A DNA stretch of 55,928 nucleotides, the filler included, from Dugesia japonica (lineage: Eukaryota): the NCBI GenBank assembly GCA_001938525.1. It is 4 parts of 4 records of this genome, joined end to end, with 100 filler letters (N's around TTAATTAATTAA, not from the genome) between each part and the next. Parts side by side here need not be neighbours in the genome. Positions count along the whole stretch, not along the records: positions 1 to 27,875 come from MQRL01603297.1; 3 more parts are not named here. One strand, 5' to 3'. Shown one piece after another: positions 300-53,868 of this stretch. Every line of letters starts with the position of its first letter. Position 1 is the first letter of the stretch. The notes under the pieces are model-generated. The model did no database searches, was not told the DNA's origin, and worked only from the letters and a program-made list of their open reading frames with translations. The translations under genes were made by a program, and so were the position numbers.

Positions 300-2914
300 G
301 TAAATTATTTCTTCGCGATTGCAATTCATAAATTTTTATATATCTTTAATTTTTAAATTTTAAAATCTTTGAAATTCACCAATTATTATAATTTAAATGT
401 TGATATATATAAATTTTAATATCGACTGGTTTTTTTAAAACAGAGTTTAATAATTCTAAATAATCGTTGAAGATTTATCTTCTGTCAAAAGATTAAAAAT
501 TATTAAAAGAAATCAAATTTTAATTGTAATTGTTATTGCCAAATTTATACTAGTTCAAGTGTTTAAAGTCTTATTTTAATGTTTTATAAATAAAAATAAA
601 CGCAATAAGTATTCTTACAAAAATAATTTAATTTGATAAAACCCAGGATTTGACGTATTTGTGCAAATAATATTGAGAATATACTGTTAAGTTTCTTGGA
701 GTAGAAATAGTTATTATTTGATAATTTTTAACCGGTATATTTGCGATACTATTTAATTTGCAGTACATATTAATAATTCCAATAAAAACATTAAAAATCT
801 GTAATTGAAAATTCGAGTTATACAATTGATTTTCTATTTTACCTTAAATAATATTGTGGAGAATACACTATCTTTATTTGTTCGCTAAATTGCAAATGAT
901 GCATTTCATTATTTATTTCCAATAAATACTATTTTTGTTCATTGATGTTTTATTAATTCTTTAAAATTCTATAAAAGAAATTGTTTACTATGAATTTTTT
1001 CTACTCACCAAATCACAAAAAATCATGTTTAAATAAATTATTTTTTACTATTTGTGGGTTTAAAAAAGTTTTTATAGACGTATTATTCATAAAGATAATT
1101 ATGTAGATTAACATGAAAAGGTCAGGAAATAAATTAAAAATTTGTGAGGTTTGAAAGAAAATGAACTTAAAGAAATTTTATTCATGTTTATTAATTCTAA
1201 AAGTGAATATTTTATGAAAAGTATTGATTTCGTAAAAAATAAGCTTTTTTGTAAACGAATTTTTTTATTTGCGCTTATTTTTTAATAATTTATATTAAGG
1301 GTCATAAAAAATCATGAGTATATTTGAAGTAAAAATCCTTATCCTTACATTCATTTTACATCAATTTAAAATAATAAATATAATTAATATTATTAATGTA
1401 AAATTGGATTTTTAAATTACAATCTTTCTTGAATATTTCAATTATAATAATAAATAAACATTTTTATTTGTATTTTGTTACACTCTGACTATTCGGTAAT
1501 ATTTTTTTTGATTACTATCGCCTTAAATTTGAAGAATACCCATTTTGTACTATAAAAATAATTTTATTTTATTCGTTTTTTATTGAAAAATTCTGAATTA
1601 AAATTTCAGGTTACTGGTTATAAGCAATATCTACATTCTAATTTAACTTAAAGAAATATTTTCTTTGTAACATAAAATTTATATTTCTTAACAATAAAAT
1701 ATCTGAATTTATTCAGATTATTTTCAAAATATTTTATATACTTACCTTTTCCTTACATTTATTTAACATGAAGTATAATTTTGTAAATTTAAATTTTTGT
1801 TTCATTTCTTAACTTTTCTGTAAATTATTTTATGAATCATCATTTTATTATTCTTGATTATATAATACGTATTTTATCATTATTATTGTGTTGAATTATT
1901 TGACTAAAGCAAAGCAACACATTCCTGAAAATTTATTACTGTTTATAACAAGTGACACAAACATATGTATTTGTATGTATTGATTAGATTTCATAAACTT
2001 TACTTCTATACTTATAAAAATTAAATTTTTTCAACATAATTAGAAAATCAATTCAAATTGTTTCAATGTTAATATTTAAAACTTTCTAAATTTTATTGAT
2101 TGATAATTCATCAGTAATCCATTTTAACAATTTTCAAAATATGAATATCTTAATGGTTGCAGAAGTTTTATTTATAGAATATTTCATTACAAAATTTCAA
2201 ATTTTGGTATGTTTAATCTACTAATTTCTTTTCAAAATGTATAAAACTTAATTATTTTACGCTCACATATATAATAGAAACATTGTTGCATATTACTTTG
2301 AATGGCATTTATTTAGTTTGTGCATGTAATACATATTATTTTTGAGAAATTTATTGACGTAATAGGAAATAGATATAAATTATTTTTAATTAATAATATT
2401 TATTTGATGTTATCAATTATTAGATTACAATTTTTTGAAGTTTGACGATATTCTAATAATACTAATAATAATTTTTCAATTGCAATTATTGTGAGAATAA
2501 TTGTTGGACATAACCATTGATCGTTTTACAGAATTCATTTAAAATAAAAGCTTCGATCAAAATATTTGTTTTTTTATTGATATTTGATAACAATTCGATA
2601 TTTCGACCTTGTCTTCGTCAGGAATTGACTTTTTAGTCAATTCCTGACGAAGACAAGGTCGAAATATCGAATTGTTATCAAATATCAATAAAAAACAAAT
2701 ATTTTGATCGAAGCTTTTTTTTTAAATTATTACTAAAAAAAATNNNNNNNNNNNNNNNNNNNNNNNNNNNNNNNNNNNNNNNNNNNNNNNNNNNNNNNNN
2801 NNNNNNNNNNNNNNNNNNNNNNNNNNNNNNNNNNNNNNNNNNNNNNNNNNNNNNNNNNNNNNNNNNNNNNNNNNNNNNNNNNNNNNNNNNNNNNNNNNNN
2901 NNNNNNNNNNNNNN

Positions 2915-2974
<60 letters not shown>

Positions 2975-5900
2975 TAATAATAATGATTCATTCATTTATT
3001 CATTCATTACAGAAAGATTACTGCATACCAAGAAATAATAAAAAGTTCTATATCTTCAATTACCATTTTCAATGATACCAATCCTACCTCCTCAGTTAGA
3101 ACTTAGTTATTTCCATTATTATCTGTATTCATCATTATGTAAAATAGGCTCCACTGGTTTCCAAACCACTGCAAATTAATGGAACTACAAATGGATCTAA
3201 TTTAAAAAAAATGGCAATGAGTATTTTCGAAATTAAAGACGTTAGTATTATGCTTTTTGTCAAATTATAATTTAAGTTATTTTAATATACATTAGTAGAA
3301 TTTCAATTAGATTTTAGAATTACGGAAATGTAATAAATTAAGAATTCTTCTTCAGGAATATCAGTAATATTTTATCTTATTGATATTCCTGAAGAAAACA
3401 ATAATCGAAAATTCGAATAATACAAAAAACAACGAAATTTTTATCGAAGCTTATATTTTAATGAAATCTTAAATGTGATGAATGGTTAAGTTCAACTATT
3501 ATTCTCGCAATAATTTTAATTGTAATAATTTTTTAAATCAATTTTTTTATTTTAAAATATTTTATTTTGCAAAAATATTTTTTTTAATCCGCATTTATAT
3601 TTTTTCGGTATAATTATGATAGATGTTTATTATTACTTTGATTGTTGTTTGAAATATAAAAATTATTAAACCATAAGTTAAGCTCATTTGCTATTTTAAA
3701 TCAAGTTCTAATATCACAATATCCATTGATAATTAAACATACCGTCATTGGATTACATATGATCATCTTCACTGTATATCTAATGAAACGTGTTTAAATT
3801 CATTTAATCTATATCGCAATCATGTAATTATGTCATTAATTTTTTATTGTTTTAGTTCATAAGTAATTTAAAATCAACTAGATAATATATTTAAGCTTTT
3901 TTAAAATAATATTTAAATAAATAATTTTTTAATTTTCACACACACACACACATATATACTACCTTAAATAATTGATTGTCATGCCAACATAATTCACGAC
4001 CTCAAATAAATAAAAATAGTCACAATATTCATGACATTAAAACTAGGAATAATGCAGGGAATACTCAAATATAATATTTAATTGTATAAAATGAGTGGAT
4101 TTACTGTAACTTGCCTAATGTCAGCAGTTTTATTATTTCTGTTTTTGTTTTTATAAATAAATAAAGTTTATAAATAGAAATATAAATTCCTTTAATAATT
4201 AATATTATGTTTCTAATGGTAAATTTAATGAAAGAAATAATTATTAATAGGCAAGAATATTGTATTGATAATATTACAATTTTATCAATAAGATATAGAA
4301 GTGTATCGGCATAAAGTATTTTATAAATTATTATTGTATTAATATTGATCACCGATCTAACTTAAATTAAATATCGTATTTATTTTAAAATGATTAAGAT
4401 ATTTATTAAACTAACTTATTTCAGTCTAACTGTTGAATGAGTTAAAATATTTTTAATCGAAATGAAACAAGAAGTTTATATACTAAACCATATTTAGTAA
4501 TTTTTTAATTTTGAGAGAATTATAAGTGTTCACTTTGTTAAAGTAATTTGCATAACAATTTTTGTTGGTTAGACCTTGTTGAAAGTAATGAATTTTTTAC
4601 AATAGATGTATTAAATGCTATTTACTTTCATAACTTATGAAGGGTTGTAAATGTGTTAATAAATGTAGTGAGTGTTTTCTGACAAACTACCGGGTTATTA
4701 TGCTTTTCGTATATCTTGAAAAATATTTATTCTAAGGACATTAAATTAAATACCATTGTCAGAGTTCTTGTAATTAAAATGTTTTTTAAATGTTTTTTTG
4801 AACTTATTTGCTAGGAGGCATAACATTTACAATTCCATCTAAAGTTTTATTTAAAAGAAAGAAAATTTCTTAATGTTTTGCTGCCATAAAAATGTTTAGT
4901 AATTCAGAAAACTACTTCAATAAATTTTAGATTTCGTAATCATAGCAAATAAGATCATAATAAAAAACTATCTGCTATCTTATTGATATTAATACAAAAT
5001 CACTTTACCATAATGATTTACTTTTCAAAAATGTTTGATGAAAAAAATGAAAACAGTTTGAGAAACAAGAATCAGTTGTTCACTTACCTAATTGATTCTT
5101 TATTAAATGTTTCCAATTGATATATAATTAGGCAATNACTTAATTTATTGATTAATAAGTTTAAGAAGTAAGAATTTTTAATTTTTAAAAATAAATCGAG
5201 CTCTTGATTTTTAAATTTTAATTCATAAATTTTGGAGATAATTTTAATTAAATAAATTTTAATTAATTATTTATTTAAAATAATAAATGATTGAATTTTA
5301 ATAATTGGTCAAGAGTCAAATTTATTTAAATTAAAAATACTCGATTTTAGACTGAAGTTTTAAAGAATGATAATTTGTTTAAATATCACAAATTAAGAAG
5401 AACATCTTGTTCGAATAAAATTATATTGGAACTTGAAAATTCTTTATTGAAACTACACCGTCTTTGCACGTTTGTTCTTACAATAAGCTTGTTTGATTTG
5501 ACAATAATTTATTTTTAAATGATTAAATTATAGTAACAATGCATTGATTATTCACTATAATCCAATTTTAAAATTTATTTATAAAATAAACTTCCAACAT
5601 ACTGTTGCGAACTTCAAAAAAAATATTAAATTTGATTATCTTTACCAAATTTTTCATTTCGTTTTTATATAAAGGCCCACCGAATGACAACTTGAGAATT
5701 AANAAGTTTGTTTTGAATTTCTATTTAAAAATGAACTAATAAATGGTTTTTTATATACTTAATTTTTAACTTAAAATGATAATTAATAATAACATTAAAT
5801 GAACTTTAATAATTTAATTCTAGATCGATTTCAAAGACTTAATAATCGTTTTCCTGTTGAAAAATAAAGAAAATATTCTTCACGGTATGTTTGGATATTT

Positions 5901-8900
5901 CAATTAATAAATATTTTTATAAATATTAAAAAAAATTGATTTTCATATAATCATAACAGCTTTTTAGATTACAAAATTATTTTAAAAAATTATTGTTTTT
6001 GGTTAATGGATTTCAATATTCTCAAAAAGAAATGTTATTAAAACATTTTATCTTGAATTAACATTTTCTAAATATTTAATGTTTTCTTATGTTAAATCGG
6101 TAAATTTTGTATATCGTTAAAAATATAATAAAAGTAAAATACTCAATAATTATACTCAAATTCTGTTGTTATGCAATAGATTCGTTCTCAAAAAACCCCC
6201 ATAAAACAGAATTAGGTGTATTATAAAAGCGGCAAATAAGAATAACGGATAAACGTTTATGAAATATAATTATATAAGCAAGTTTAACTATGTTTAAATG
6301 CAGTACACAGACATTTCATATAAATTTTTTTATACAAAACCTTTTCATATTTGTTTCAAATAATATTTTGTTTCAAGTAAATACGTGAAATTTTTATAAT
6401 TCTGTTCTGTTTGGCCATAAAAGGACAAATAATTTTGTGGAGGGTTGGCATTCGCGATTTCAAAAATCTTGCATTTCTAAACGTGCAACAATTCGGAAAT
6501 TTATCGAGTTCTTACAGAATGATGAAAAAGTCAATCAAGTGTTAATTTCGCAACTAAATGATGACCATAAAAGTATTCAACATCCTTTTAAGAAAAAATA
6601 CTAATAATGCTGAAAGGATTTCAATAATCGTAAGACCTATTTAGTTTGAAAAAGAGACGGTTAAATTGATGAATATATTTCAAACATTGAATGGCTTCTA
6701 AATTATAACTATATCAATATAATAAATAAATTTTAAATTTTGGGATCAGTGTTCAATTAGTTCATCAGTTTATTAGTGTATCATTAGTGTATTAGTATAT
6801 TAGTTAGTATTTAAATATTTATATATATATTAGTATACAAATTAGTATACAAATTAGTATATATATTAGTATATTTATTATTAGTTTTTTCTTTTTTTTA
6901 GTTTATATTTTCCAACTTGGATTAACTATTTTGATTAGTTTTATAATAGTAATGTTTTATAATAGTATTGTTTTATAATAAAATGTTTTATATGAAAAAG
7001 GTTTATATGGAAATTTTTTTTATGAAATGTTTGTGTAAGGAAACTATTTAAACTAATTTTGAGTTAATAACATAATTTTTTTCAAACGGACTGATTCATT
7101 TTAGAATTGTCAGTTGAATATTTAAAAAAACTGAGTATTTGTTTAAATATCGTTTTTTAAGGTTTAGTTATATTTTGAACTTATTGAATAAATCTGTTAT
7201 GGAAATTAAGACTTTTGATTTAACTGGCGATCCAGCCTAGTTGAACCTAATTACTCGAAACCAGGAAACCAAAGCAAATAGGATCTATGAAGCTTTGCCT
7301 AAAGAGTCAAGGGAATTACTAACCCCTAAAATTACGAAATTCTCTGGAGATTATGACGAAGACCCAGCAAAAAGTTTAAATGAAATTTCAATTTTTGCAG
7401 AATCAAACAGCTTTGATTTATTATCAACCTTTGATTTTTTATTAGACGGTGATGTAAAAGACCTGTGGCAAGAATTTAAAAGTCTGCAGAATGTCAACGA
7501 TAAAATGGCTAGTGAATGGTTTAAAGGAACATTTATAAAAAAAAGTCATTTCTCCGAATTATTGAAGAATGTAGTGAAATTCGACAAAAAGAAAATGAAT
7601 ATTTTGAAAACTTTGAATTAAGAGTTTTAAGATCAAAGAAATATTTGAATCAGGATTGACTGTGGAAAAAATTGCTCAACAAATAATCAAGAAAAGAGTT
7701 GGTTCCAAAGAGCTATGAAAACAATTTGCTCTTAAACCAGAAATTAAGCCTGATTAAATGAGAAAGTCTGCTGAAAATTTTGAGAAGAACGATGAAAATT
7801 TTGGTGGGTTACAGATGAATAAGTTGACTTACTCAGAAGTGGCAGCTGCAAGTTACAGTCAGAGAATTAAGAAAATTGATTTAAAAGGTTCTAACTCTCA
7901 TAAACCTAGGAATAAAGAAATTGAAAAAGTAATTCCAATTGCTGAAGAATTTAATAGTTCCAAAAACAGCAGAGACGGCCAATTTAGAAATATGCTAACA
8001 GTTTCCAAGTTTATTGCAAGTAAATTGTAAAATAGATAAGAAGAACTCCCTCCACCAAAAGAAGAACAATCAAAAAAAGGCTAATCCTTTTGCCGTGGTT
8101 TGATTGGTCACATACATAATAACATCCCTCTTAAATCATAATAATAATTGTATGAAATGCATTTCAGAAGATGACAATGTGGATGAAAGAAATAAAGATT
8201 TAAAGATGATCAATCATGATGCTAGCTATTTAAACGAAAGACACTCCATTGTTTCAATTTCGTCGCTGGAGTCAATAAAATATAAACTGAAAATCGGAAT
8301 TGTGATATGTATAAGAAGAATGATGGAAGAATTTGGAGTATGGTCAAAGTTAGGAGTAAATGGTCGAAATGTTGTTGGATACAAGTGGTTCAATATCAGT
8401 GATTGATACAAAGTTATGGAACGAGTGTGGATCTTTTACATTGGATAAATTTAATATTAAATTGAGTGGTGTATTCTCAAAAGAAGCAGTGAATTGTTCA
8501 GGAATTGGAAAGGTTGAAATAGAATTTGGAAATGTGAAGAGAATTGCTTATATTGTGATTGCTGATGGAATAAATCCAGAATTTCTTGGTGGAATTGATA
8601 TGTTTAATGCATTTAATATTCAATTAAAAATGCCCAACATATTGGTCTCAGAGAACATTAACAGCAAATTCAATGATAATGATCGTTTTAAGGCAGCATT
8701 ATCAGCCTTTAAACCGAAAGATAATGATTTAAAAGAAATGCTTCTAAAGTTTACAAATATATTTATGGCAGAAATTTTTATCTTGGAAAAACACATGTTG
8801 TAAAACATTTCATTCCGACAGTTGGTGATCCTATTCTACAACAACCTAAACGTCAACCAATACATCTTGAACAGTAGATTGATGAGTTGATTGAGCAACT

Positions 8901-11900
8901 GATAAAAAGCGATATTATCAAAGAATGCAGAAGTGCTTGGAATTTTTCGATGGTAATTGTTGGTAAAAAGAATGGCGCGATCAGAATGTGGCAAGACTTT
9001 AGAATGTTGAATGATTCTACAAAGAAATTTTCATTCCCAATGCCAGATCCACAAACCTTGTTTGATTACATTTGTGGCTGTACAATATTTTCAACTTTGG
9101 ATGTGGGGCAAGCTTATTATCAAGTAGAATTAAATGAAGATAAGATTAAAACGGCATTTTCAACAAAGAACGGACAATATTGCTACAATCGTATGCCATT
9201 TGGGTTATCAACTGCTCCAGCTACATTTCAGAAATTGATGCATACAATTTTGGATGGGATTTTATTTAAAGGTGTAATTGTATATATTGACGACATTTTA
9301 ATATTTGCAAAGAGTCGTTCTGACCATGATAAAATACTTGAAAATGTATTTCAAAGAATTCAGAATTCTGGTCTCAAAATCAATCCAAATAAATGTAAAC
9401 TATATCAAAGTGAGTTGTTATTTTTCGGCCATACAGTTAGCAAAGACGGATTGATGCCTAATTCAGAGAAAGTCTTAGAAATTGCAAAAGCAGAAATACC
9501 AAAATGCACTAAACAGCTACGTTCTTTTTTAGGCATGGCAAACTGTCACAGGAAGTTTGTTAAAAATTTTTCGTTACTTGCTAAACCATTATTTGCTGCA
9601 ACGGAGGGCCATAAATGAGAAATCCAATGGACTGAAGAGTGCAAAACAAGCTTAATGTACTGCACCAATACTAGGTTTTCCGGATTCAAGCAACCAATTC
9701 ATATTGGATACTGATGCTAGCTTTAGTGGGATTTGTGCAGTATTGAGCCAAATTCAAAACGTCGTGAAGTGGTAATTTCATACTGCTCAATACTAATAAA
9801 TGCTCATGAAAAAAAGTTATTGCGTGACACGTAAAAAATTGCTGGCGTTATATGAATTTATCAGACATTTTCGTCGTTATTTATATGGAAACATTTTGTA
9901 GCTCGAACTGATCACAAGGCATTGGAATTTATTAGGCGTTCACATAAATTAATTACGTCACAATTTCAAACCTGGATAACCGAATTGGCAGAATATGATT
10001 TTGAACTTAAATATTGGAAAGGTGAGCAGCACCAAAACACAGATGGTATGTCTCGTATTCTTTCAAGTTATTGTTCTCAGTGTCAAACCGAACATGTGTA
10101 CGCTAAAGTCAAGATGTCTAAAGTAAAATATTTGAGTGTTTTAGATTATTCTGTAGGCAATGTGTATAGCTATATTAACAGATTTAAGAGCAATGAATTG
10201 TTTATTTAAATGAAACAGTACCTCTCTGGAGAAGACAAAGAGATTCTTAAAGATCCAAACGAATCAATTTTCAGAAAACACTTGAATCATTTATTTGTAG
10301 AAGACAATTTGATAAGCATTGGACGTGATGGGGTTCGTAAGATTGCAGTACTACTAAATGAAATAAACGACTTTGTTAATAAAGTACATGAAGATTTATG
10401 TCATGTTAAAATGAAGAAAACTATAAAATATGTATCAGATTATTTCTTCTAGCCAAATATGATAAGAGATATTCAAAATATAATACAACAATGTCAATTT
10501 TGCATGCGCAGGAAAATAAGTTGTAAAAAGGTTCAAGATAAATTTATTCCGCGCGAAGTTAGTAATCCTATGGAACAAATCGTTATGGATATATCATATA
10601 TGGATATTGGTCGATCAAATAAAATATATATGATCGTTATATATGATTGTTATCATCGATCAATTTAGTAAAATGATTAGTCATACTGCAACAAACAATC
10701 AAAATGAAACCGCTGTAAAAAGCACTCTACTAAACCACTGGATTTATAATTTNNNNNNNNNNNNNNNNNNNNNNNNNNNNNNNNNNNNNNNNNNNNNNNN
10801 NNNNNNNNNNNNNNNNNNNNNNNNNNNNNNNNNNNNNNNNNNNNNNNNNNNNNNNNNNNNNNNNNNNNNNNNNNNNNNNNNNNNNNNNNNNNNNNNNNNN
10901 NNNNNNNNNNNNNNNNNNNNNNNNNNNNNNNNNNNNNNNNNNNNNNNNNNNNNNNNNNNNNNNNNNNNNNGAAAACCACAGAAAATCGTGTCAGACCGTG
11001 GTAAAGTATTTGTAGGGAAATTATTACAAAATCTAGCTTAATATTTCATGGATCTTTACATCTTCATATGAACATAAATCTAATTGATTAGCTGAATGAG
11101 CAATCAGAACAGTTCGAGACCTGATAGTGACTTCAATGAAAGCGGAAGAGTGTGAAAAATCTTGAGATGAACTTCTTCCTAGAGTAGAGTTTGTATTCAA
11201 TTGTACTATATCAAAGTCAACAGGATTCTCACCAATGGAAATCATATATAGGAGGAAGATAAATATTCACACAAATAAATAACACAACTTTGGAGAGGAC
11301 GAAATTATAAATAAAGCTTACGATAATATTAAACGATCAGCACAGACAATGATAAATCAAGGAAAAAACCGTGTTAGTCGCGAGTTCGAAGTAGGTGAAG
11401 ACGTGTTAATAAGAAAACTCCCAGAAACGGAAAAAGAATGATTTTAAAACTTTAAACTTAGTTTACAATTTTATTATAATTTATTTTTTATTAAAACATC
11501 TTGGAAATAAAACTTTAACTTTGATAACAAAGCAAATTATTATTAAAATTTGAGTAAAGTGAAATCTTTATTTTCAAATATAAATATTAGCTTCTTTGTA
11601 GATGATGTGTCACCTATGGTTTTACAAGAGCACGCAAACAACATTCAAGAAAATAATTGTGTTAAATCCTGTATGCATTGTGACAGAGGAACAGTCGCAG
11701 TTAAAATAATATATTATTTAAGGTCTAATCGACCCATAAACAGTAAATTTATAATAAAGTTTACATGAATTTGATCAAATAAATATCTAGCAATTTCAGA
11801 TAATACTGTGAAAGGATTGGTTCAAAATAAAAAACCCTATCAATCTAAGCTTAAACAAATCAAGTACAATATAAATGGTAGATGGATTGAAAACGAGATG

Positions 11901-14900
11901 CCAAAATGGCTAATGGTAAAATATTTTTAATAAATGATATATATGGTACAAATTCATTCCAAATTTGGTAAAATGAAAATTCAATGGTTTTTAAATTAAA
12001 ACTAATTAAATTATTTTATTTTCAAAATATTTTTTTTAAATAGACATCTTTTAGGTAACAAATTATTACAAAATTATGAACAGAGCACTTGATTTCAGTA
12101 AAATCACTAAAACCTTAAAATAACCATCATTCTGATTGGTTAACAAGATATTAAATTAGATCGATTTTTTCATCTTTTATCTAACTCTTGCAATCAAATC
12201 TTTGAATTATCACACATAATACCGCTTTAAATCATCAGCGTTATCATTAATGCATCTGCAAAGTTTACATAATGTTTAACTTGCCTAATTTTTATTACTG
12301 GATGTTGTTGTTGTCTAAGGTTCTAGTCACTGATGCCAGAATGTCATCCATTATTATGAGATCATCTTTAATATAGTCTTGAAAACTTGCATTCTTTCCT
12401 GATTCCCAAATAATATTCACCAATACAAATATTATTAAGTATAATGAATTTCTCAACATAAATACAGTAAAACCCCGATTATCCAACATCCGATTGTTAG
12501 ACACACAGTTTATCAGACATAGAAATATTTAAATTTAAAATACAATTAATAATCATTGAAATAAAAACTTCGATCAAATTTTTTTGTTTTTCATCAAAAA
12601 AAAGTTCATTTTTGACAAAGACTAAGTCGAAAATTCGAATTATTATCAAAACCAAAAAAAATGATCGAAGCTTTTAATGAATTCTGAAAAACGATCAATG
12701 GTTACGCCCAAAAATTATTCTCGCAATAATTGTAATTGTAAAATAATTAATATTGATTAAACTGTATTGACATACCATATATTAATTATGTCATATATTA
12801 ACATTATGTCAGATAAAAGAGGTTTTACTCTATTTATGTTTTTACATAGTTCTTTGACTGTGATAAACACTTTTGAATTTTTACATTTTAGAATATTTTC
12901 AGCCTCTCATGCTTGATAAGGTAGGTTGAATGTGTCGAATTCCTTTCTTTATCGATGACATCTAATTTCTTTCATAATAATAGGCGTCTATAATACACTT
13001 TTGATTCTAAGTACTGATCTGGTTCATTACTGTGTTGCTGTATTATTTAGAAGTAAAATCTTTCAAATTTTAGATAACTTTNNNNNNNNNNNNNNNNNNN
13101 NNNNNNATAACTTAATATCAATAACCAGTAAAATATTTCTTCCATCTCTTGTTAGTTTGCTGTTCCAAACTTTCAAGCACTTTAATGAACTAAATCGATT
13201 CTCAAAGCTCGGATATTGTTCATGTTGTCAATTGGAATTTTTGAAGTAATGCCGATTTTCTGATTTACCTCTAAGAAACAAAGGTGGTTTTTAATTTTCG
13301 AGTCATATTGGTTCCAATTAATACAGAGTTCCGAGTTATGCTTTTTCCCAGATGTACAAATGACAGTGAACTTTTAAGCTCTGTTATGCTGATTGCACTT
13401 TTATAGGCTCTCAATCTATCTATTGCTTAAAATTGATTTATCATTGTAGTTGCAATTTTTATGTCTTCTCTTTGAGACTTTAGCAAGTGACAGAAATATT
13501 GTGACTTTTCATTTGTTTTAACAAAATCAATATCGCCTTTTGAAGATCTTCGTGTTGAAATTATTTATCTTGTTGCACTTTGAAGGATTACCATCATCAA
13601 TTGTATTTCAAAATGCCTTTTTGATTTTATTATTCCAACTATAATCGTTCTAGGGACTCCATATATTATATGGCATATAGCTTTGCTATTTCTGTTTGGC
13701 TTTCATATTTGAAAAATTGTCAATTGAGTGGGAGGAGGTGTTTCAAATGTTGTATTCCACATGTTGATCACTGTATTCTCATATTTTCAGTAGGATTTTA
13801 AAACAAATTTTCTTTCATCTAATGTCACTTTTCGTGGCATGGTCAATTTTTTTGCCTACTTAATATATTAATAATAAAGTTAAAAGTCTATATTTTATTG
13901 ATTGTTTTAGATTAGTATATCTACGTATAAATTTATTCATATACAAAGCATAAACATATATTTCATAAATATAACAATAGTTATACGTTTTTGTAGATAA
14001 ATTTATTTTAGTTTAACTGTATACTAAATTTTTTGACCAGATGTGAAAAATGTTCTAATGCAGAGGGCAATAAATTTGAACACAAGTTGATAGACGTTGT
14101 TTTTATATTCAGAATGGCGGTAAAAATTAATCTGTGGATGTTTTGTGTTAGATAATCATCTCTCTAAATAAATTTATTTTAATTTAAACTGTAAAGTAAC
14201 TTTTTGAGCACTCTATATTATTCAAACGAGAAGATTGACACTCATCGTAGAATTTAGAAAACTAGCTGATTCCATTAAGAATTTATTACAATAAATATAA
14301 CAATTCGAAAAAACTGAGCTGAAACAATAATAATAATACAGGGTTTTTCATCATATTTTAACATTATTTCAGCATATTTTGACATTTTTTCAATCAATTT
14401 TGACATTATTAATTCATGATCCAAATATAAAAGTTTTTCATTTTTTTATAATCATTTAAAAATTAGTAAACAAGTCACTCAATTTGCATCATTAGGAAAA
14501 TATTTTAAATAAAAAAAAAAAAAATTTAAACAAATCTTTCACTACTGAAGTTAAGGATAAGTGTTTTAAAGCACCATTCTGTTAATCAGCAGCTAATTTT
14601 TTAAAATAGATTTTAAAATTAATTAAATATATTTTCAAAAAATTGTGACATGGTAAAATTTTAGATGATGCGAAAAACAATATTTTCTGATTCATGATAT
14701 CATTTATTACGTAATTTAAAAAATAAATATAAAAATGATGCACATAGCGGATGTTGAAGTTAGTCAATATTTTATTTTGAATTATTTTAGTTGAATATTA
14801 AATTTTATAAATAACTATTATATACTATTATATATAAACTATTANATAACTATTATTTCATAATTTGAATGATAATAATTTAATGTCAAAATTTACTGAA

Positions 14901-17900: not shown

Positions 17901-20900
17901 TTTTGATCATAGTTTTATTTTTGTGTAACAATAGAAATTTATCAGCATTATCGATGGATCACTTCTATCAACAATTACTAAAGAAAGCTTTAATATTTTG
18001 GCAAGTGAAATAGTTTCAACAGATGATTTTCTTTCGCAAGACGAATTACAAACAAAACTAATCGGGTAAATTTTTTATCAATAAATACTCTTCATATTCT
18101 TAATTAATTAAAATTAGTATTATATTGATTCTCATTGCATTGCCCGATTTTCAAAACACTTATTTATTTTAATTAAGATAGCGTTATTTTTATTAAATTA
18201 TTATTAAATTAATTTTTGTGTAAATACTCAATAATTTAATTAAGAACAATAATCTAAATGAAAATCGAAATTATTATAGAACTGCTGGATATTTACAACA
18301 ATATATACTAGATATAGAAAGAAAAATTAAGGTTCTTGAAATAGAACAAATAAAAAATGTAATTTATACTTAATATTAGCATCATACATGTATTATGGAA
18401 ATTCTTCGTAATATGCGGGATAATATAAAGATCTAAATTAGATGACTTTTATTTACGGAAACAAAATTATAAAAATTTAAATTCACTGGGTTTTATTAAA
18501 ATTTAATGGGCAGTTGACTCATTGATGGAAATGAAGGCTAATTTTCAACTTTTATGTTACTATGGAAAATGAAGGTTATTGGCGTCTTATAAATTGTAGA
18601 CTCAAAACTAGTTTCTAAATGTCACAGATACTTATAATGCATATACACCACAATATATTATTACAGACACCTATTTATCTACTACAGTTTTCTGTATATG
18701 AAATACGCTCTTAATGTTTTTATTTAATCAAAAAATAACCCCAAAACGAAGTCACAATCTTGCAGTCAGCAGCATTTTTAAAGTGTTCGCCAATGTAGTA
18801 AGCTAAATAAAATTGTCTCCGAAGATTTGGTTTTATAATAAGTAATATGGGATTGTTAATGAGTTTTAACTCATCGGATCATCAGCATCAAAATTCATCT
18901 TCATAAAATTTATTTCAAATAAAAACTATCTATAACCAACTTTTTGTGTTTTAAAACAAATTAAAATCCATGTTTTAATTGGTGATTGTTTCTCAAAATT
19001 TTTTAAAATCTATTTAAAGTCGTTTAAATTTTTTTTTCAGATTTTAAAACAAATGTTCACTTTATTTATTAAAACTTAATTTTAAAATGTAAAACAAATA
19101 CTCATTAGTCATTTAAATTTTATATTCAAATTTTAAAACAGATTTTTACTTTATTTATTAAAACTTAATTTTAAAATTTAAAACAAATACTCATTAGTCA
19201 TTTAATTTTTCATCTACAATTTAAATCTTTTTTAANNNNNNNNNNNNNNNNNNNNNNNNNNNNNNNNNNNNNNNNNNNNNNNNNNCTTTTCAAAACAGAC
19301 TCACAGTGATCAACTATCAATTTTCAATTATTTTCTTCTCGAGTGTATAAGCTGCATAGATAATCTTCATTCGCTTGTAACTCACGAAAATGACCATTTT
19401 TATTTGAAAATTACACAAATACCTCGCAATTGTATCTGTAGGTTCAAAATTAATTTAAAAACATCTTTTCGATCAAAGTTTTATAATTAATTTAAACTTT
19501 AACGTCCAACAATTATTCTAGCAATAATTGTAATTGTAAATAAATTAGTTATAATTATAATATAAATTATTTAATATTTCAATGAATTTAATGTTTAAAA
19601 TGATGTTGACAAAATACATTAAATTCAATATAACGTATTTTAAAAATCTCAGTTAAACATTTTGATAATATTGTTTAACATAATTTATTTGCAAAAAAAT
19701 GATTAATGATTAAACAAATATTTTTTTTAGCTTCATTCAGAAAATTCCACCTAATCACTTGAATTTTTTTCAACACATACTTGTGATTCTAGATACCATA
19801 ATTAAAAATTCACAAATAAATCAAATGAATATCACCAATGTTTCTACTTGTTTTTCCCAAAATCTGTTTAAGCATCTTTCTGATGATCCAATTAAAATTA
19901 ATCGATTGTTTGAATGTATACTCCACGTGAGAGATCGAATTGTAAATCCAGTTACTTACAGTAATATTGTTCGAAGTTTTGAAAGCAGAAAACTATCAAG
20001 TGGATCCTCAGAAAGTGAGATAGCGTATTTTGAATACACAATAATATTCGATTTATTCTATGTTTAACTTGAAATACATGGATTTAAATTTTAAATTAGA
20101 ATGTTTAATTAGAATTTTTTAAATTTTTGTTTAAATGTCTTAGAAATNNNNNNNNNNNNNNNNNNNNNNNNNNNNNNNNNNNNNNNNNNNNNNNNNNNNN
20201 NNNNNNNNNNNNNNNNNNNNNNNNNNNNNNNNNNNNNNNNNNNNNNNNNNNNNNNNNNNNNNNNNNNNNNNNNNNAATTAAAAATGACTAGAAAATTTGT
20301 TTATATTACATTTGAATTTAAGTAAAATTAGCAAATTATTAATCATTATATGTTTATTGGTTTTAATAATTAATAATTTTATTGTGAATTTATCAAAAGC
20401 TTTTAAAATACTTTTCATTAAAATATTGTTTTCAATTATTTTCTGTTTATAATCCAGAATATAATTGTCTTTGATAGAAATTTCTTCATGGTATCTTATA
20501 AAATTGTATATAGTTACACAGTTGTGTGAGAACGTTGTTATCTGTGCAAATTAGTGATCATTTGTAATTTCACTTATCTGTTTACTCATTTGATATGTCA
20601 AATTGATCACAATTTATTTCACTAAATTATCGAATAATTAAATTCAACCTATACAGTTTCATATGTTTCAATATGTGATTCATAATGATGTTAATAAAAT
20701 TTGAAAACGATTATAATATCGTTTTTTTCAATTTTTTGTCGTATTTTGAATGAATAATATTAATTTATTTGTTTCCGTTAAAAGTCTTTATTTCACTTTC
20801 ATTTGCAATTAATAACCATGAATAATTCACATATCTTGTTTATTACGAATAATTTCTTTGTACATTACTGTTTTATACACTGAAATTTGATGCACTGCAA

Positions 20901-23900: not shown

Positions 23901-26900
23901 CCAACATTCAACTGTTCTTTTTGAATTTCGAAGTTGCTCCTGTCTCCTTATTTGTGGACTTACTGGTTTGTGCCAATCCTTATTCAATCTTGTTGTCTGA
24001 CTTCTTATCGCATCAATATAGTCTTTTATCCCTTCTATTTTATCTAATAAACCCAATGTTTCCTTAATTTCCGTTACCGTGGATTGTTTGCTGAGTACCA
24101 CTTCTCTGTGCAAAGTATTACTCTCAGATGAACTCACTAGAATTTTGGCTAACAACGCTTATTTTGTCAAATCTTTGTGTGCAAAATATTTTCTACTAGA
24201 GTCTCTGCTTTTTTTATGAATGTATCTAACTCCAGATTTCCTCGTCTGAATGTTAATAAACTCTCCAGGTCTTCTAAAATATCCTTTTCCTTGTGAAAAG
24301 CCAGCCGCAGACTTGCTTGAAAATCCGTTGCTTTATCTGCAGTGTTTAAATATTTTTCTATCAAATCAGTGTCTAATAAACACGATACTAGCTTTTCCTG
24401 ATCTCTTTGAGCATTAATCCCTTTAGTTGCCAAGTACAACTCGCACTGTTTTAAAAATATTTCCAATTCTCCGTCTCCTACTACAGTTTCTCGGTAGCAA
24501 CCTCTCTGCAATGGTGCCGGTAATAACCGCTGCCACCATGTGAGCATACCTCTGGTAAATAACAATCTTCTTTTAGCATAAATATTTATTAAAAAAAATT
24601 ACAAGGTTTCTAAACAAATTTTACAATAATAAATTTACAGCAAATCAATAAATTTACACTACAATAACTTATAATTTACAAATAATTAATAATAAAAATT
24701 ACCCTTTAAAATTTATAAATACACCAATATTACCTTGTCAAAATTCCAAAATAAATACCTTCAGATAAACCTTTTTAGACTCAGATTTATTTTTTAAATT
24801 TAAACCACCGCAAAACAACTGATTATAATATTTAAATTAAATCTATAAATTCTTATATATAATTAATCCTCACAATTATATTTTATTATATTCATTTATC
24901 TATGTCATTAAATTTGAGTTATCTGAAGGACAAATGCTCAAAAATTAAATAATTAAATGTATAATTCTGAGCACGGGTTTTCTGCATTCAATTTGAGTTA
25001 TCTGAAGGACAAATGCTCAAAAATTAAATAATTTCCATCATTGGAAAATAAAATTATTTTCATTTCACGACACTCACGTGATTCCGGAAATTAATAATTC
25101 CTACAATTTCCACATCATCATGAACGAAAAATATTAGTAAAGCAATAAAGAAATTAATTGGAATAAAAATAAAAATTTTCGTAATTTTACTAATTTAATA
25201 TCGCCATTAATATCCTACCAGATAAAAGCATTACCTTTTATCAGAAACAATTGGTCTTTGTTGTTGATAGTTCTCATGGAATTCACCAATGACTTTTTAC
25301 GTTTCGGACTATCATATTAAATCCATTTCTCATTTCTCATGACAATTTTCCACAAGAAAGACTTTCGATGCTGTCTATTGAGAAGAGAAAGACATGTCTG
25401 GTAGGATATTAAGGGCGTGCTATATTATGAGTGATATTTGTCGTTGATATTTGTTGGATTAAGTTCATGTAGGGCCAGATTTCTTTCTTTTTGGATATTA
25501 CACATTTCATGTAGGTGATTAGAAACAGTTTGCTGAGTTACTTACAATTGTTTTGTAAGCTCCACCCGTGCCTGTGTCTCTGTCGAATTATCAGAGTAGT
25601 TGTTCCAGATATTCATTCCTGCATGCTTTAGTAGCACCAGGACGTTGTTTGTCCGTGAGACTGAAATCACCGCTTTTAAAGCGCCTGAAGCAAAATGTAT
25701 ACTCATCATACGACTCTACATCTTTGCCAAGAACTGAACAAATGGATTCCCATGTTCTTGCTGCAGTGTCGAATACAGTGTCGAATATGTACCATATCTG
25801 ATCCTATGTAGGACACTGCTGGATTGAAAGTTTTGAAGTTTCTGATTGATTCTTTTGTAATTAATTTAATTTGACAATTAATTCTACATTAAAATATTGT
25901 AACAATTGTATTACTTATATAACATAATAAAAATTTGAATTATTTATTTGTAAACCTAATATATAGAAACACAACAATTTTCTAATCATATTAATAATAC
26001 ATTCAATGTTTCTAGCTTAAAATACTGTTTTAATAATTAATTATTTCATTTAAATAAAAGCTTCGATCAAATTTTTTTAGTTTTTGATAATATTTAGTCT
26101 TCGCCAGGACTTGACTTTTTTGATTTATTCAAGATTGAATTATTTATTATTTGTTTAATTAATTATTTGTTTTATAGGTCATCATAAATCAGATGGAGCG
26201 GTCAACTTTGATTTGGAATTCAATTTGTATATATATTTTTAGTATTAATCTTTTATTACAATTAAATAGACCAATGAATTATAAAGCAGTGTCAAATTCC
26301 AACGACGAGAAAAGTTCTGTATCTGTACCCGTAGTCCCTCCAAGACTTAAAAAGAATATTCAAAATAAGCATATTTTCACAACTCCAATTGGAAGTCCTG
26401 TTATTCCTAGTAGATCTATCTCCAGACAAATTAGTCTTGAAAATAAACGCCCATTATCTTCTGTAATTTTGGCGACAGATGTGAATGACAAATATCTTGA
26501 TGAATTAGACTCTAAATTTGTTTCCAAAAATTTAGATGACCCCATATTACCTTCAAAATCTCCTGTAAAACCAATTCAAAAGTCTAAAAGACTTTCAAGG
26601 AGTTCCAATACTTTCAGTACAAACTCAACAGAAACTATGAATACTGAATCCGGTAATTTTTGTCGCCAAATTCAAGTCAACCGTAAACATAAAAACTATA
26701 CCAACTCAGAAAATTTTAACCAAATTCAGAATAATGCCAAAAATAATGTGAATCAACTCAAATCTTTTTCTAAATTAACTCGAAGTAATGATAGAGTTAT
26801 TCCTAAAAATCGCTCCAGATCTCAAAGTAAATTAGTGGAAAATGTGCCAAATATTGATTCACAGCCAACAAAAACTACATATCATTACAATGCCGATTCT

Positions 26901-27875: not shown

Positions 27876-27975
27876 NNNNNNNNNNNNNNNNNNNNNNNNN
27901 NNNNNNNNNNNNNNNNNNNTTAATTAATTAANNNNNNNNNNNNNNNNNNNNNNNNNNNNNNNNNNNNNNNNNNNN
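27876..27975. other. Artificial contig linker
   Basis: 44 N + TTAATTAATTAA + 44 N. Confidence 0.97.
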
Positions 27976-28809: not shown

Positions 28810-28812
<3 letters not shown>

Positions 28813-28877
<65 letters not shown>

Positions 28878-28927
28878 NNNNNNNNNNNNNNNNNNNNNNN
28901 NNNNNNNNNNNNNNNNNNNNNNNNNNN

Positions 28928-28979
<52 letters not shown>

Positions 28980-28981
28980 TA
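28813..28981. repeat. (TTA)n microsatellite spanning a gap
   Basis: Direct reading. Confidence 0.95.
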
Positions 28982-29377
28982 ATATTTTAAGAATTATTAA
29001 ATTATTTTAGTTAATGATTATTTATATTACATTAATATAATGAAACGGGATTTTTGTTTATGAAAATCATTTGGTACCGATCGGCATATAAACAAATTTT
29101 ATCTAAAGAGAATTATTGATGCAGACTGTGGGACATTTTGTTTAGTCAATTTATATTGGATGAAAATTCATTTAATTTTATTGTGCACATTATTAATCGA
29201 TAAATTTCGTAAATTTCCACTTATTCTTATGAAAATTAATTTTTAATTAAAGAAGAATAAAAAAANNNNNNNNNNNNNNNNNNNNNNNNNNNNNNNNNNN
29301 NNNNNNNNNAAACAAAATGTTTAGTTTTAATCAATATTCTATACGTTGAAATTTCGAGAATTTTGAAAGAAAAATGG

Positions 29378-32176: not shown

Positions 32177-32297
32177 CTATCAAGATTTATTATAAGAATT
32201 TAAAATATTTACATACCGACTATCATACTTACAAAATCGATTAACGTAAAGTATTATTTTTTTGTTGATATAATCATTCAGTTCTTATATATAGATA

Positions 32298-32437
32298 TTT
32301 ACAATTGCAATTATTGCGAGATTAATTGTTGGACATAACCATTTTCATAATTCATTTAAAACAAAGGCTTCGATCAAAATTTTGTTTTTTTTGTTTCCAA
32401 AAACAAATAAAATTTTTTTCGAAGCTTTTATTTTAAA
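32298..32437. repeat. Hammerhead-repeat family copy, inverted pair lacking the ribozyme
   Basis: tacaattgcaattattgcgag...ggacataaccatt...gcttcgatcaaaat then inverted tcgaagcttttatttt. Confidence 0.65.
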
Positions 32438-32447
32438 GGAATAGATA

Positions 32448-36456: not shown

Positions 36457-36866
36457 ATGAAAATTGTTCTTGGATTAATTGTAGCGGTGTTTTGGATTAT
36501 CATATCAATTGCGAAATATTCCGAGTCCGCAGCAGTAAAATATTCTGATTGTTTAAATGAACTTGAAAATTTAATGATTATTATTATTATTATTTTAATA
36601 TTTAATAAAAATATATTCAATTTAGGCTATATGTAACCGATCAAATTGTACAGAATGTACTTGTCAGGGTTTAGAGGGGCTAAAAGTAATCATTATTATT
36701 TTGCGGTAAAATGAAAAATAAAATTTTTAAGGGAGATATGGGTTTTGATGGTCATATTGGAAAACCAGGATATCGGGGTGCAAAAGGAGATCTTGGACCT
36801 AAAGGATTACCAGGATACAAAGGTAATGAAGGATATAAAGGAGATCAAGGTCCAAAAGGAATGATG
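36457..36866 (+). CDS. Type IV collagen alpha chain, first three exons (36457-36534, 36626-36685, 36732-36866), truncated by contig end
   Basis: Signal peptide MKIVLGLIVAVFWIIISIAKYSESAA; Cys-rich AICNRSNCTECTCQGLEGLK like the collagen IV 7S start; 15 perfect Gly-X-Y triplets; all introns GT-AG phase 0. Confidence 0.88.
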
Positions 36867-37465: not shown

Positions 37466-37565
37466 NNNNNNNNNNNNNNNNNNNNNNNNNNNNNNNNNNN
37501 NNNNNNNNNTTAATTAATTAANNNNNNNNNNNNNNNNNNNNNNNNNNNNNNNNNNNNNNNNNNNN
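37466..37565. other. Artificial contig linker
   Basis: 44 N + TTAATTAATTAA + 44 N. Confidence 0.97.
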
Positions 37566-37613: not shown

Positions 37614-37716
37614 TATTCATTTAAAATAAATGCTTCGATCAAAATTTTTGTTTTTTTGTTTGGTATTTGATTACAATTTGATATTTCGACTTTGTCTTCT
37701 TTAGGAATTCACTTTT
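37614..37716 (-). repeat. Hammerhead-repeat family copy abutting (TTA)n
   Basis: gcttcgatcaaaat...gatatttcgactttgtcttctttaggaattcactttt; core G5>A. Confidence 0.7.
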
Positions 37717-37734
37717 ATTATTATTATTATTATA

Positions 37735-50730: not shown

Positions 50731-50831
50731 GAATTTCATTAAAATAAAGAAAAAGCTTCTATCAAAATAACATGTATTTGTAAAGAAATTCAAATTTTCG
50801 ACCTTTGTCTTCTTCAGGAATGATGACTTTC
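50731..50831 (-). repeat. Hammerhead-repeat family copy
   Basis: aaaagcttctatcaaaat...ttttcgacctttgtcttcttcaggaat. Confidence 0.6.
50788..50821 (-). ncRNA. Hammerhead ribozyme copy
   Basis: AUUC-CUGAAGA-A-GAC(AAAG)GUC-GAAA-AU-UU-GAAU on minus strand. Confidence 0.6.
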
Positions 50832-51059
50832 TGATGTATTCAAAATGGCAATCGATCTTTTCTACAAAATTTTTAATCTTTTATCGAGATTTTTTTGATC
50901 TATTTAAATTCTTAATTTTTTTTTAAATTAAATCTCAAAAATTCTTTTAAATTAAATTTAATTGAAAATCTATTAATGGTTTTTTAAAAATTTTTTTTAA
51001 AATATAAATTAATGCATTAAAGTATTTAAATATTTAGATATATATTTTATTAATATTAA

Positions 51060-52945: not shown

Positions 52946-53116
52946 AAAAATTATTCACCGCCATTGCTTTTTCTCATTTCGTATTTGATATATCATCTTT
53001 CTGTATTCGTTTACATATTTATCGTTTCTATACTTCCTTTAATTGATACCATTTTAACGGCTTCAGGAACTATTGCTCCCGAAGAAGGCATAGCCGAAAT
53101 ATTGAACCATCTATGA
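52946..53116 (+). CDS. Possible terminal exon with a hydrophobic segment
   Basis: ctacacag acceptor then 56 open codons KNYSPPLLFLISYLIYHLSVFVYIFIVSILPLID...; no upstream exon linked. Confidence 0.3.
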   Translation, partial: KNYSPPLLFLISYLIYHLSVFVYIFIVSILPLIDTILTASGTIAPEEGIAEILNHL

Positions 53117-53868
53117 AAATAGAAGAACATCATTTTGATCTTTGCATTTGAAAATAAATTTTAAATAACAGAATTTATTTTTCAAAATATTTGTTTAAAA
53201 AAATTTTAGTGAGAAAAAATATTATGAAAGAAGTTATGAATTTTTATTGATTTCTCTGGTAATTGTTGTGAAATTATGAATGTTTTGGTTTTTTTTTATC
53301 TAAAATTAATTTTTTTATGAAATAATTAATGAATGAACTGTTTCTTTCCTTTTACTTTATTGTTTAAATAAAATGTGTGTAAAGCACATAAGAACCATGA
53401 ACTTTATTCACCTTATATTAGCTGATATTTAAAATATAGAACCAATCCCCACTTTTTATATGTATACGCTCATTTTTACGCGAATTACCGAGGAACGTAA
53501 AAACAGAATTAGGTGTATAAGTTTTTCTTTAAATTCTTTTTATCTTTTACATTTAAATAAGATTTTTTTAAAAAGGAATATTAGTAATAATAATAATAAT
53601 GTTGGGATTCCATCTGAGTTGACGACAGAAAAATGTGGCTGGGGGAAAAGATCAGCTCTCAGTAGTTGACTCCCAACGCATTCTTGGAGTAAGTGCTCAC
53701 ACCTTTGTTTCGGGTTCATAATTTCCCCTAATTCGTGGTAGATTAAAGAGAAAAACAACTTTATGTACCAAGAAAAATTTATTTATAAATAATCAAAAGC
53801 CCCTGGGTCGAGCCATTCAACGGCGCATCGTCCGTAAAATCGAACGCGGCCTCGTCGTCATCACTGTT

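What the first reader, a model, noticed from the sequence alone, without database searches (positions are those of the whole stretch)
2591..2674. High-copy non-coding repeat family carrying a minimal hammerhead ribozyme
Seen: a ~170-bp repeat recurs at about 2475, 3346, 12561, 19466, 26044, 32298, 37614 and 50731, in all four independently assembled pieces. Its best copy reads CAAUUC CUGACGA A GAC AAG GUC GAAA UA UC GAAUUG, a complete type I hammerhead with 6-bp stem I, canonical core, one extra A before stem II and a palindromic stem III. Established: such minimal hammerheads occur in Penelope-like element pseudo-LTRs and retrozymes and are thought to cleave as dimers through the palindrome. 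Inference: this is an abundant, probably unannotated, non-autonomous ribozyme-carrying retroelement. No Penelope RT or GIY-YIG ORF was seen in the window.
Basis: partly seen in the sequence, partly recalled or inferred. Interest (0 to 1): 0.85.

Follow-up and report, generated by a model that had tools for sequence, protein, structure and literature searches.

The report
Miniature Penelope repeat with hammerhead ribozyme
This is a real minimal hammerhead-ribozyme motif, present here as two back-to-back mirror copies, at the front of a very abundant ~165-base repeat that is likely the protein-less end piece of a Penelope-like jumping gene; this kind of ribozyme has been known since 2014, and this locus is predicted to be inactive.

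Summary
Observation confirmed and extended. 2591-2674 holds two identical type I minimal hammerheads, head-to-head on opposite strands (C17 at 2668+ and 2597-), in a 61-bp perfect palindrome. A descriptor gives 3 hits versus 0.003 per shuffle. Six copies covary, with stem III always palindromic (AUAU 3, AAUU 3). The carrier is a ~165-nt unit at 9 loci in the window and on ~34,000-35,000 contigs in each of two DNA runs. It has a fixed 5' end just upstream of the ribozyme, an optional ~60-nt 3' tail, variably truncated head-to-head partners, and 8-bp flanking duplications at 2 of 4 such loci tested. That is the published Penelope pseudo-LTR anatomy. No RT/GIY-YIG was found in the window, and the genome could not be searched, so the autonomous partner is inferred. 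Retrozyme (tandem, circular) and MITE readings are not supported. RNA reads look like passive read-through with no end pile-up. Flanking context is predicted to misfold the core. Verdict: new member of a known kind; modest interest.

The parts
2472..2634 (-). Full ~163-nt unit (pLTR-like arm with hammerhead at its 5' end, plus 3' tail)
   Evidence: nhmmer; alignment A1; sharp 3' boundary at 2471/2472 in 149-209 contigs per row, runs X1 and X3
2591..2627 (-). Minimal type I hammerhead, intact; predicted cut after C at 2597
2635..2728 (+). Inverted, tail-less second arm joined head-to-head (perfect arms 2570-2630 / 2635-2695, 4-nt spacer)
2638..2674 (+).
2472..2531 (-). ~60-nt optional 3' tail, absent from the inverted arm and from solo arms
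2483..2503 (-). Weak 8-bp stem-loop about 11 nt from the 3' end (candidate RT recognition site, inferred)
   Evidence: this hairpin is the MFE in 2 of 5 tails; the other 3 fold differently
3346..3525 (+). Older copy with tail; 20-bp head-to-head palindrome just upstream of the hammerhead; core intact, stem II broken
12553..12744 (+). Head-to-head pair: 5'-truncated inverted arm (12553-12592) plus full copy with tail; hammerhead 12606-12642 with U3-A8 core; candidate 8-bp TSD 12544-12551 / 12745-12752
   Evidence: P=0.05
19467..19542 (+). 5'-truncated tail-only copy, between RhoGAP exons
26043..26122 (-). Solo tail-less arm; 3' half of the hammerhead deleted
32296..32440 (-). Head-to-head pair, both members 5'-truncated (no hammerhead); 8-bp TSD 32291-32298 / 32441-32448
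   Evidence: P=0.008
37614..37718 (-). Solo tail-less arm abutting a (TTA)n run; hammerhead with G5A, likely dead
50736..50832 (-). Solo tail-less arm; hammerhead 50786-50823 with intact core, AAUU stem III, U17, 4-bp stem I
53060..53148 (+).

Best explanation
The repeat is a ~165-nt protein-less unit that carries a minimal hammerhead motif at its fixed 5' end and is likely the pseudo-LTR plus tail of a Penelope-like retroelement (PLE), likely copied around the genome by a PLE reverse transcriptase/GIY-YIG protein supplied in trans. SHOWN: motif, covariation, abundance, a fixed 5' end about 10 nt upstream of stem I, two 3' ends (with and without the ~60-nt tail), head-to-head partners of variable length joined at that 5' end, heterogeneous AT-rich flanks. 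INFERRED: (1) an RNA starts just upstream of the ribozyme, from a pLTR-internal promoter; (2) the PLE protein nicks AT-rich DNA and primes internally at one of two sites (arm end or tail end), as shown in vitro for the Anolis PLE; (3) RT runs to the RNA's 5' end; because copies keep the whole ribozyme instead of starting at the cut site, the template is uncleaved RNA; (4) a second, variably truncated cDNA is joined head-to-head, and repair leaves a ~8-bp duplication; (5) the ribozyme cuts slowly and only as a dimer through the 4-nt stem III palindrome, probably protein-assisted, and was under selection in the master copies. This locus is predicted inert: read-through RNA folds into a ~100-bp hairpin that buries both cores.
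For: Covariation in 6 distinct copies: 7 cells changed on both sides, 0 of 500 shuffles reach this; stem III AUAU x3 / AAUU x3. One copy has the U3-A8 core reported for PLE min-HHRs. Match to the published min-HHR consensus: extra nt after A9, G10.1-C11.1, palindromic 15-16. Head-to-head pairs at 5 of 9 loci. Opposite-strand joints from 2527/2543/2558/2571/2575 to 2632-2634 in DNA runs X1 and/or X3. Tail on one arm only, head-to-head palindromic junctions and 8-10-bp TSDs are the PLE anatomy in PMC3846280 (passages) and PMC8557442 (passages). 8-bp repeats flank 2 of 4 head-to-head loci tested (P 0.05, 0.008) and 0 of 4 solo copies. Loose ends beyond 2633 are heterogeneous (141 contigs, agreement 0.43, X3), so no common upstream sequence is seen. 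Internal RT start, ATT preference, uncleaved template and protein-assisted HHR come from PMC11167929 (main text parts 1-2). In the DNA rows shown, HHR variation of 4% or more lies at loop II (25%), C11.1 (14%), stem I (13%) and N7 (7%), not at the 11 core positions.
Against: No PLE RT or GIY-YIG domain in 229 of 262 frames scanned, and no genome held, so the link to an autonomous PLE is by anatomy only. The tail (~60 nt) is longer than the 30-40 bp reported. 2 of 4 head-to-head loci show no significant TSD (P 0.38, 0.14), and I chose the boundaries by eye after noticing the candidates. The covariation rests on 6 related sequences; the control ignores relatedness, and AT drift could give U3-A8. 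7 (X1) and 9 (X3) variant places of 4% or more were hidden and could be core positions. G12 is changed in 3.6%. The active fold is predicted only for the trimmed 37-mer (P stem I 0.75); with 12 or more natural 3' bases it falls to <=0.01. No read-end pile-up at 2597 in two RNA runs (table 6).
Confidence: 0.72

Rival explanations
1. The copies are ordinary 5'-truncated debris from the 3' pLTR of an autonomous PLE; the apparent fixed 5' end is only a strong RT pause at the ribozyme structure.
For: PLE insertions are heavily 5'-truncated. Most min-HHRs in S. mansoni were solo and ascribed to truncated PLEs. Shorter truncated copies exist here (19467, 32296).
Against: None of 9 loci extends upstream into a shared 3' UTR or ORF. 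Loose ends beyond 2633 have no consensus (agreement 0.43), although high-depth shared contigs could be among the 750 rows not shown.
Confidence: 0.15
2. A non-LTR retrozyme: tandem 170-400-nt units transcribed, self-cleaved and circularised, and spread through circular RNA.
For: Unit length fits. A few head-to-tail DNA joints exist (2633->2454, 2634->2486 in X3). A preprint derives animal retrozymes from PLE pLTRs (abstract, introduction and methods; passages).
Against: No tandem array of this unit in the window. The dominant arrangement is head-to-head. The HHR is of the minimal type, whereas retrozymes carry canonical HHRs with loop 1-loop 2 contacts (passages). RNA is scarce (6 and 181 reads per million), on both strands, about 90% running on into unlike sequence, with no circular joint among the rows shown. 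Oligo-dT libraries would miss circles, so this last point is weak.
Confidence: 0.07
3. A fold-back DNA transposon (MITE, e.g. hAT-related because of the 8-bp duplication) or a Helentron-type non-autonomous element; the hammerhead is a passenger or chance.
For: Long palindrome at the lead locus; 8-bp flanking repeats; a hAT remnant in the window; a hairpin near the 3' end.
Against: The two termini of the TSD-flanked units differ (tail on one side only) and the inner arm length varies, so there are no terminal inverted repeats. Compensatory changes keep the ribozyme fold. Helitron-type elements make no TSD (recalled, not from a call).
Confidence: 0.04
4. The mirror duplication at 2635-2728 is an assembly artefact next to a gap; the repeat family is real.
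For: The arm ends 15 bases from the N-run at 2744; the exact 2630/2635 joint was not among the rows shown.
Against: The arms differ by one A and diverge at the outer end. Other head-to-head loci away from gaps exist, and such joints stand in independent DNA runs. This rival does not affect the family-level conclusion.
Confidence: 0.12

Closest known systems
Minimal hammerheads (min-HHRs) in pLTRs of metazoan Penelope-like elements (Cervera and de la Pena 2014, PMC4209133)
   Same: Type I; CUGANGA plus one extra nt; G10.1-C11.1; GAAA; 2-nt palindromic 15.2-16.2; NUC/NUU; thousands of solo copies; pairs on opposite strands; U3-A8 variant.
   Different: Sequence matches none of the Fig. S3 rows that I read in the supplement PDF (supplement file 1 could not be searched, part 3 of file 2 not read). 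Stem II is only 3 bp with a 3-nt loop (short end of the range; the C. briggsae row also has 3 bp). Upstream flank is A-rich, not U-rich. No attached ORF seen.
Endonuclease-containing PLE insertions with inverted pLTRs (Adineta vaga Pen2a/Pen3a, PMC3846280; scheme in PMC8557442)
   Same: Head-to-head inverted pLTR, shorter than its partner; palindrome at the junction; tail on one end only; 8-10-bp TSD; solo pLTRs.
   Different: No ORF between the repeats; arm ~100 nt versus ~200; tail ~60 nt versus 30-40; far higher copy number.
Poseidon PLE of Anolis (PAc; Frangieh et al. 2024, PMC11167929)
   Same: Two 3' ends defining a tail; AT-rich targets; HHR retained, consistent with an uncleaved template; no RNA-seq ends at the cut site.
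   Different: PAc is autonomous and biochemically tested; nothing here is.
Animal non-LTR retrozymes (PMC7229834; bioRxiv 10.64898/2026.07.22.740005)
   Same: Short, non-coding, type I HHR, proposed PLE dependence.
   Different: Those are tandem arrays with abundant circRNA and mostly canonical HHRs; this family is dispersed, head-to-head, minimal-HHR and weakly transcribed in the two runs laid.
Short-stem-III hammerhead variants of Lunse, Weinberg and Breaker (PMC5785218)
   Same: By title and by the review's summary: PLE-associated, cleave as dimers.
   Different: Paper not held; I saw only its citation, so this family may already be among its sequences.

Membership tests
PLE-type minimal hammerhead | Conserved core C3UGANGA9, G12AAA15, U16 H17 | tested here: met
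   Intact at 2644+, 2621-, 50817-, 3389+; U3-A8 at 12612+; single core changes at 37704 and 53079
PLE-type minimal hammerhead | Extra nucleotide between A9 and G10.1; G10.1-C11.1 pair | tested here: met
   Extra A in 6 of 6 distinct copies; G-C in 5 of 6
PLE-type minimal hammerhead | Palindromic vestigial stem III | tested here: met
   AUAU 3, AAUU 3 of 6
PLE-type minimal hammerhead | Stems I and II supported by compensatory change | tested here: met
   5 of 11 pairs with two-sided change; only 6 sequences
PLE-type minimal hammerhead | Self-cleavage as a dimer | not testable with these tools
   No end pile-up in two RNA runs; the nearest-neighbour energy of my drawn dimer (-4.8) is above the cofold MFE (-15.5), but the model lacks core contacts
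Penelope-like element (EN+) | RT plus GIY-YIG ORF between or beside the repeats | tested here: not met
   None in 229 of 262 window frames. Genome not held. So these copies are not autonomous PLEs; the parent is unidentified
Penelope-like element (EN+) | Inverted 5'-truncated copy adjoining the 5' end | tested here: met
   5 of 9 loci; joints to 2632-2634 in DNA runs
Penelope-like element (EN+) | Optional 3' tail on one end only | tested here: met
   ~60-nt tail on 5 direct copies, absent from the inverted and solo arms; longer than the published 30-40 bp
Penelope-like element (EN+) | Target-site duplication (8-10 bp in A. vaga) | tested here: inconclusive
   8 bp at 2 of 4 head-to-head loci tested, 0 of 4 solo copies; the 53060 locus was not tested
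Penelope-like element (EN+) | Tail overlaps the start of the PLE ORF | tested here: inconclusive
   A 27-codon open frame starts at the arm end in the 12677-12757 copy, too short for a protein search; by my reading the common tail variants are mostly not at third positions
Non-LTR retrozyme | Tandem head-to-tail arrays | tested here: not met
   No array in the window; only a few head-to-tail joints shown
Non-LTR retrozyme | Abundant monomeric circular RNA | tested here: inconclusive
   None in the rows shown; one oligo-dT and one cDNA library only
MITE / hAT | Terminal inverted repeats at both ends of the TSD-flanked unit | tested here: not met
   Ends differ (tail versus arm end) at 12553-12744 and 32296-32440

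The most novel reading that the evidence does not exclude
A self-propagating miniature Penelope: an ORF-less 165-270-bp element, the PLE counterpart of a SINE or MITE, that reached about 10^4-10^5 copies from its own short uncleaved RNA. It keeps a selected dimer-type hammerhead that flanking sequence holds switched off, and it seeds the genome with head-to-head copies that give ~100-bp dsRNA hairpins on read-through. Its thousands of natural variants would test whether PLE hammerhead cleavage matters for transposition.
Probability: 0.3. Interest if true: 0.55.

Novelty: new member of a known kind. Interest (0 to 1): 0.3.

Why it matters
The ribozyme class and the insertion anatomy are both published, so this mainly adds a family. 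Its value is as material. The role of PLE hammerheads is stated to be unclear (PMC8557442), and in vitro cleavage was dispensable for insertion (PMC11167929). A family with on the order of 10^4-10^5 copies, subfamily covariation and a hard 5' boundary just upstream of the ribozyme allows a direct test of selection on the core, and of whether uncleaved RNA is the template in vivo. About one copy per 6 kb in this window also makes it a notable cause of assembly breaks and of hairpin RNA in introns and UTRs.

Tried and rejected
Rfam scan: no hammerhead family at E<=1; three chance hairpin hits. Whole genome: not held. Metagenome scan with a hammerhead pattern: 0 hits; viral contigs: 0. A 20-nt tail motif gave 8 metagenome loci; none extends into the ribozyme (best profile E 0.002), so I treated them as chance. 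The look-up of sequencing runs: no RNA holder listed on record; raw-read runs were added by species label. Host placement failed: two protein searches returned unnamed sequences and the Atlas gave only Eukaryota RhoGAP clusters; a collagen-repeat exon points to an animal. Planarian was my guess from recall for literature searches; nothing confirmed it, and the Schmidtea and Hydra motifs in Fig. S3 differ from this one. The 17-nt motif was not found in the supplements searched of PMC4209133 (RNA letters are used there, so I also read the alignment) or PMC8557442. The tail peptide could not be searched (27 aa), so the link to a PLE ORF stays open. The sigma-70 scan does not apply to a eukaryote and was ignored. 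My covariance model R1 found only its 7 training motifs plus 5 weak hits at E>=0.07. Searches for a described ORF-less PLE of this anatomy found retrozymes and putative non-autonomous Chlamys elements, not this family; Repbase and Dfam could not be searched. Supplements of the bioRxiv preprint were not seen and could list related families.

Full report
Setting. The window is an AT-rich (about 19-37% GC per 2 kb) gapped eukaryote scaffold with RhoGAP and collagen exons and Gypsy, mariner, pogo and hAT remnants. No genome is held. Public runs of one coded organism A hold the stretch 1-2632: 20 listed rows from 10 studies, 6 with half the words or more. The host is probably an animal (inference from the collagen exon); I could not place it further.

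Observation. The quoted hammerhead is at 2638-2674 (+), C17 = 2668. It is half of a palindrome: perfect arms 2570-2630 and 2635-2695 around a 4-nt spacer, and 92% identity over about 217 bases. A second, identical ribozyme therefore lies at 2627-2591 on the minus strand, C17 = 2597. A strict min-HHR descriptor finds 3 motifs at 2 loci in the window and 0.0033 per shuffle in 300 shuffles. Rfam has no matching hammerhead model at E<=1.

The repeat. An nhmmer profile gives 12 hits at 9 loci; the reversed window gives nothing under E 0.43. In ribozyme sense the unit has about 10 A-rich bases, the hammerhead, about 55 further bases to an arm end near position 100, then an optional tail of about 60 nt. 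The tail is on 5 direct copies and on none of the inverted or solo arms. Five of 9 loci have an inverted partner joined at the 5' side. Laid on 2290-2634 at 80% likeness, 34,294 of 10.2 million contigs (X1) and 35,189 of 9.2 million (X3) fit. Summed word depth is 9.5/12.4 in the unique flank and 2.3-4.6 million over the ribozyme and tail peaks. The tool warns that this is no copy number. My rough figures are 7,000-13,000 after dividing by 31 for word overlap, and 125,000-153,000 if the window's density held over 0.76-0.93 Gb: order 10^4-10^5. The 3' end is sharp at 2471/2472 with unrelated AT-rich flanks (agreement 0.46-0.47). Opposite-strand joints run from 2527, 2543, 2558, 2571 and 2575 to 2632-2634, i.e. 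variably truncated inverted copies attached to one fixed 5' end. A few head-to-tail joints also exist. Many rows were hidden (60 variants, 65 joints, 750 loose ends). Eight-base direct repeats flank 2 of 4 head-to-head loci tested (P 0.05 and 0.008 against composition-matched windows; the other two 0.38 and 0.14) and 0 of 4 solo copies; boundaries were set by eye.

Is the ribozyme under selection? Among 6 distinct copies, 84.8% of cells pair, 5 of 11 pairs change on both sides, and 0 of 500 shuffles reach the 7 such cells. Stem III is AUAU in 3 and AAUU in 3, a palindrome either way. The control ignores relatedness and n is small. The 12612 copy has U3-A8, a core covariation reported for PLE min-HHRs, though AT drift could produce it. 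In DNA run X1 the shown variants of 4% or more inside the ribozyme are loop II (25%), C11.1 (14%), one stem I base (13%) and N7 (7%); G12 is changed in 3.6%. Seven (X1) and 9 (X3) such places were hidden and may include core bases. Against activity: the active stems are predicted only for the trimmed 37-mer (P 0.75). With 12 or more natural downstream bases P(stem I) is 0.01 or less, and 8 or more upstream bases already cut it to about 0.1. Read-through of the palindrome gives a -143 kcal/mol hairpin. The mirror ribozymes are on opposite strands and cannot pair in cis.

Expression. 68 of 10.5 million reads (X21) and 2,458 of 13.6 million (X22) lie on the stretch, on both strands, about 90% running on into unlike sequence. 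There is no place where many molecules begin or end and no circular joint among the rows shown. This fits passive read-through of many copies. These libraries would miss circles and short non-polyadenylated RNA.

Partner. No PLE RT or GIY-YIG domain was found in 229 of 262 frames of 45 aa or more. The 33 left out are mostly other frames over the two Gypsy remnants, and Pfam may miss short decayed PLE pieces. A 27-codon frame opens at the arm end of one copy, as pLTR plus tail overlap the ORF start in A. vaga, but it was too short to search.

Mechanism. Best reading (0.72): the pLTR-plus-tail of a Penelope-like element, moved in trans. The published anatomy is the same: an inverted 5'-truncated copy next to the 5' end, a tail on one end only (PMC8557442, passages), head-to-head palindromic junctions and 8-10-bp TSDs (PMC3846280, passages). 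For the Anolis PLE, RT starts internally at two sites that define the tail, the endonuclease prefers ATT, uncleaved RNA is the main template, the HHR cuts only with protein, and RNA-seq shows no ends at the cut (PMC11167929, main text parts 1-2 of 4). The D. virilis pLTR holds an internal promoter (PMC2377424, abstract and two sections). I infer that an RNA starting just upstream of the ribozyme is primed at its arm end or tail end and copied uncleaved to its 5' end. Whether that RNA is the front of a full PLE transcript or the unit's own short transcript is open. Rivals: plain truncation debris 0.15, retrozyme 0.07, DNA transposon 0.04; separately, 0.12 that this one mirror arm is an assembly artefact.

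Known or new. The motif fits the min-HHR consensus of PMC4209133 (main text parts 1-2 of 4, supplement PDF parts 1-2 of 3), which reports thousands of solo motifs per genome and opposite-strand pairs 100-700 bp apart. It is a member of that ribozyme class by every sequence feature tested; cleavage is untested. It works like a PLE end but is not an autonomous PLE, since the ORF test is not met at these loci. It fails the tandem-array test for retrozymes in this window. I did not find this family in the papers searched, but the most relevant paper (PMC5785218) was not held and Repbase/Dfam were not available, so novelty of the family itself is unverified. An earlier scan note from another genome (e1-9887598) reached a similar reading; it is not independent support. 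Verdict: real, new member of a known kind, interest 0.3.

Noticed in passing
window 7241-11100 (+) and 21206-24747 (-): Two decayed Gypsy-type LTR retrotransposons (protease, RT, RNase H, integrase hits); the second is flanked by 150-bp direct repeats at 97% (21206-21355 / 24545-24694), likely its LTRs. A third integrase piece lies at 46879-47214.
   Followed up: partly
window 25594-25803, 33511-34331, 48291-48446, 52045-52230: DNA transposon remnants: Mos1-type HTH, pogo/Tigger HTH plus DDE_1, mariner DDE, hAT dimerisation domain.
   Followed up: no
window 17732-18010, 19714-20064; 52-300; 36690-36887: Host exons: RhoGAP domain in two pieces with a repeat copy (19467) between them; weak PH-domain hit (E 0.0098); collagen triple-helix exon.
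   Followed up: partly
window 26178-27281 (+): 367-aa low-complexity S/N/K/P-rich open frame, no Pfam family, one unnamed homologue at 36% identity; probably a disordered host exon. It starts about 56 bases from the 5' end of the 26043-26122 copy.
   Followed up: partly
window 27876-27975, 37466-37565, 46777-46876: Three pairs of 44-N runs each enclosing 12 bases; the three are near-identical in the repeat scan and the one read is a short TTAA palindrome. Likely scaffolding filler, not genomic sequence.
   Followed up: no
window 2915-2984, 28812-28986, 37715-37923: (TAA/TTA)n microsatellites abut scaffold gaps; one repeat copy (37614-37718) runs directly into such a run at its 5' end, and the lead locus lies one gap away from another.
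   Followed up: partly
window 12606-12642: Hammerhead copy with both C3U and G8A, the U3-A8 core variant; missed by descriptors that demand CUGANGA.
   Followed up: partly
window 19018-19210; 47474-47953; 45808-46305: 89-bp two-copy tandem; 212-bp and 81-bp near-identical direct duplicates beside 50-N gaps (the latter two probably overlap artefacts of assembly).
   Followed up: no
window 2374-2421: In one search this AT-rich flank has 30-60 times the unique depth in both DNA runs: a second, lower-copy repeat or low-complexity matches just beyond the tail end.
   Followed up: no
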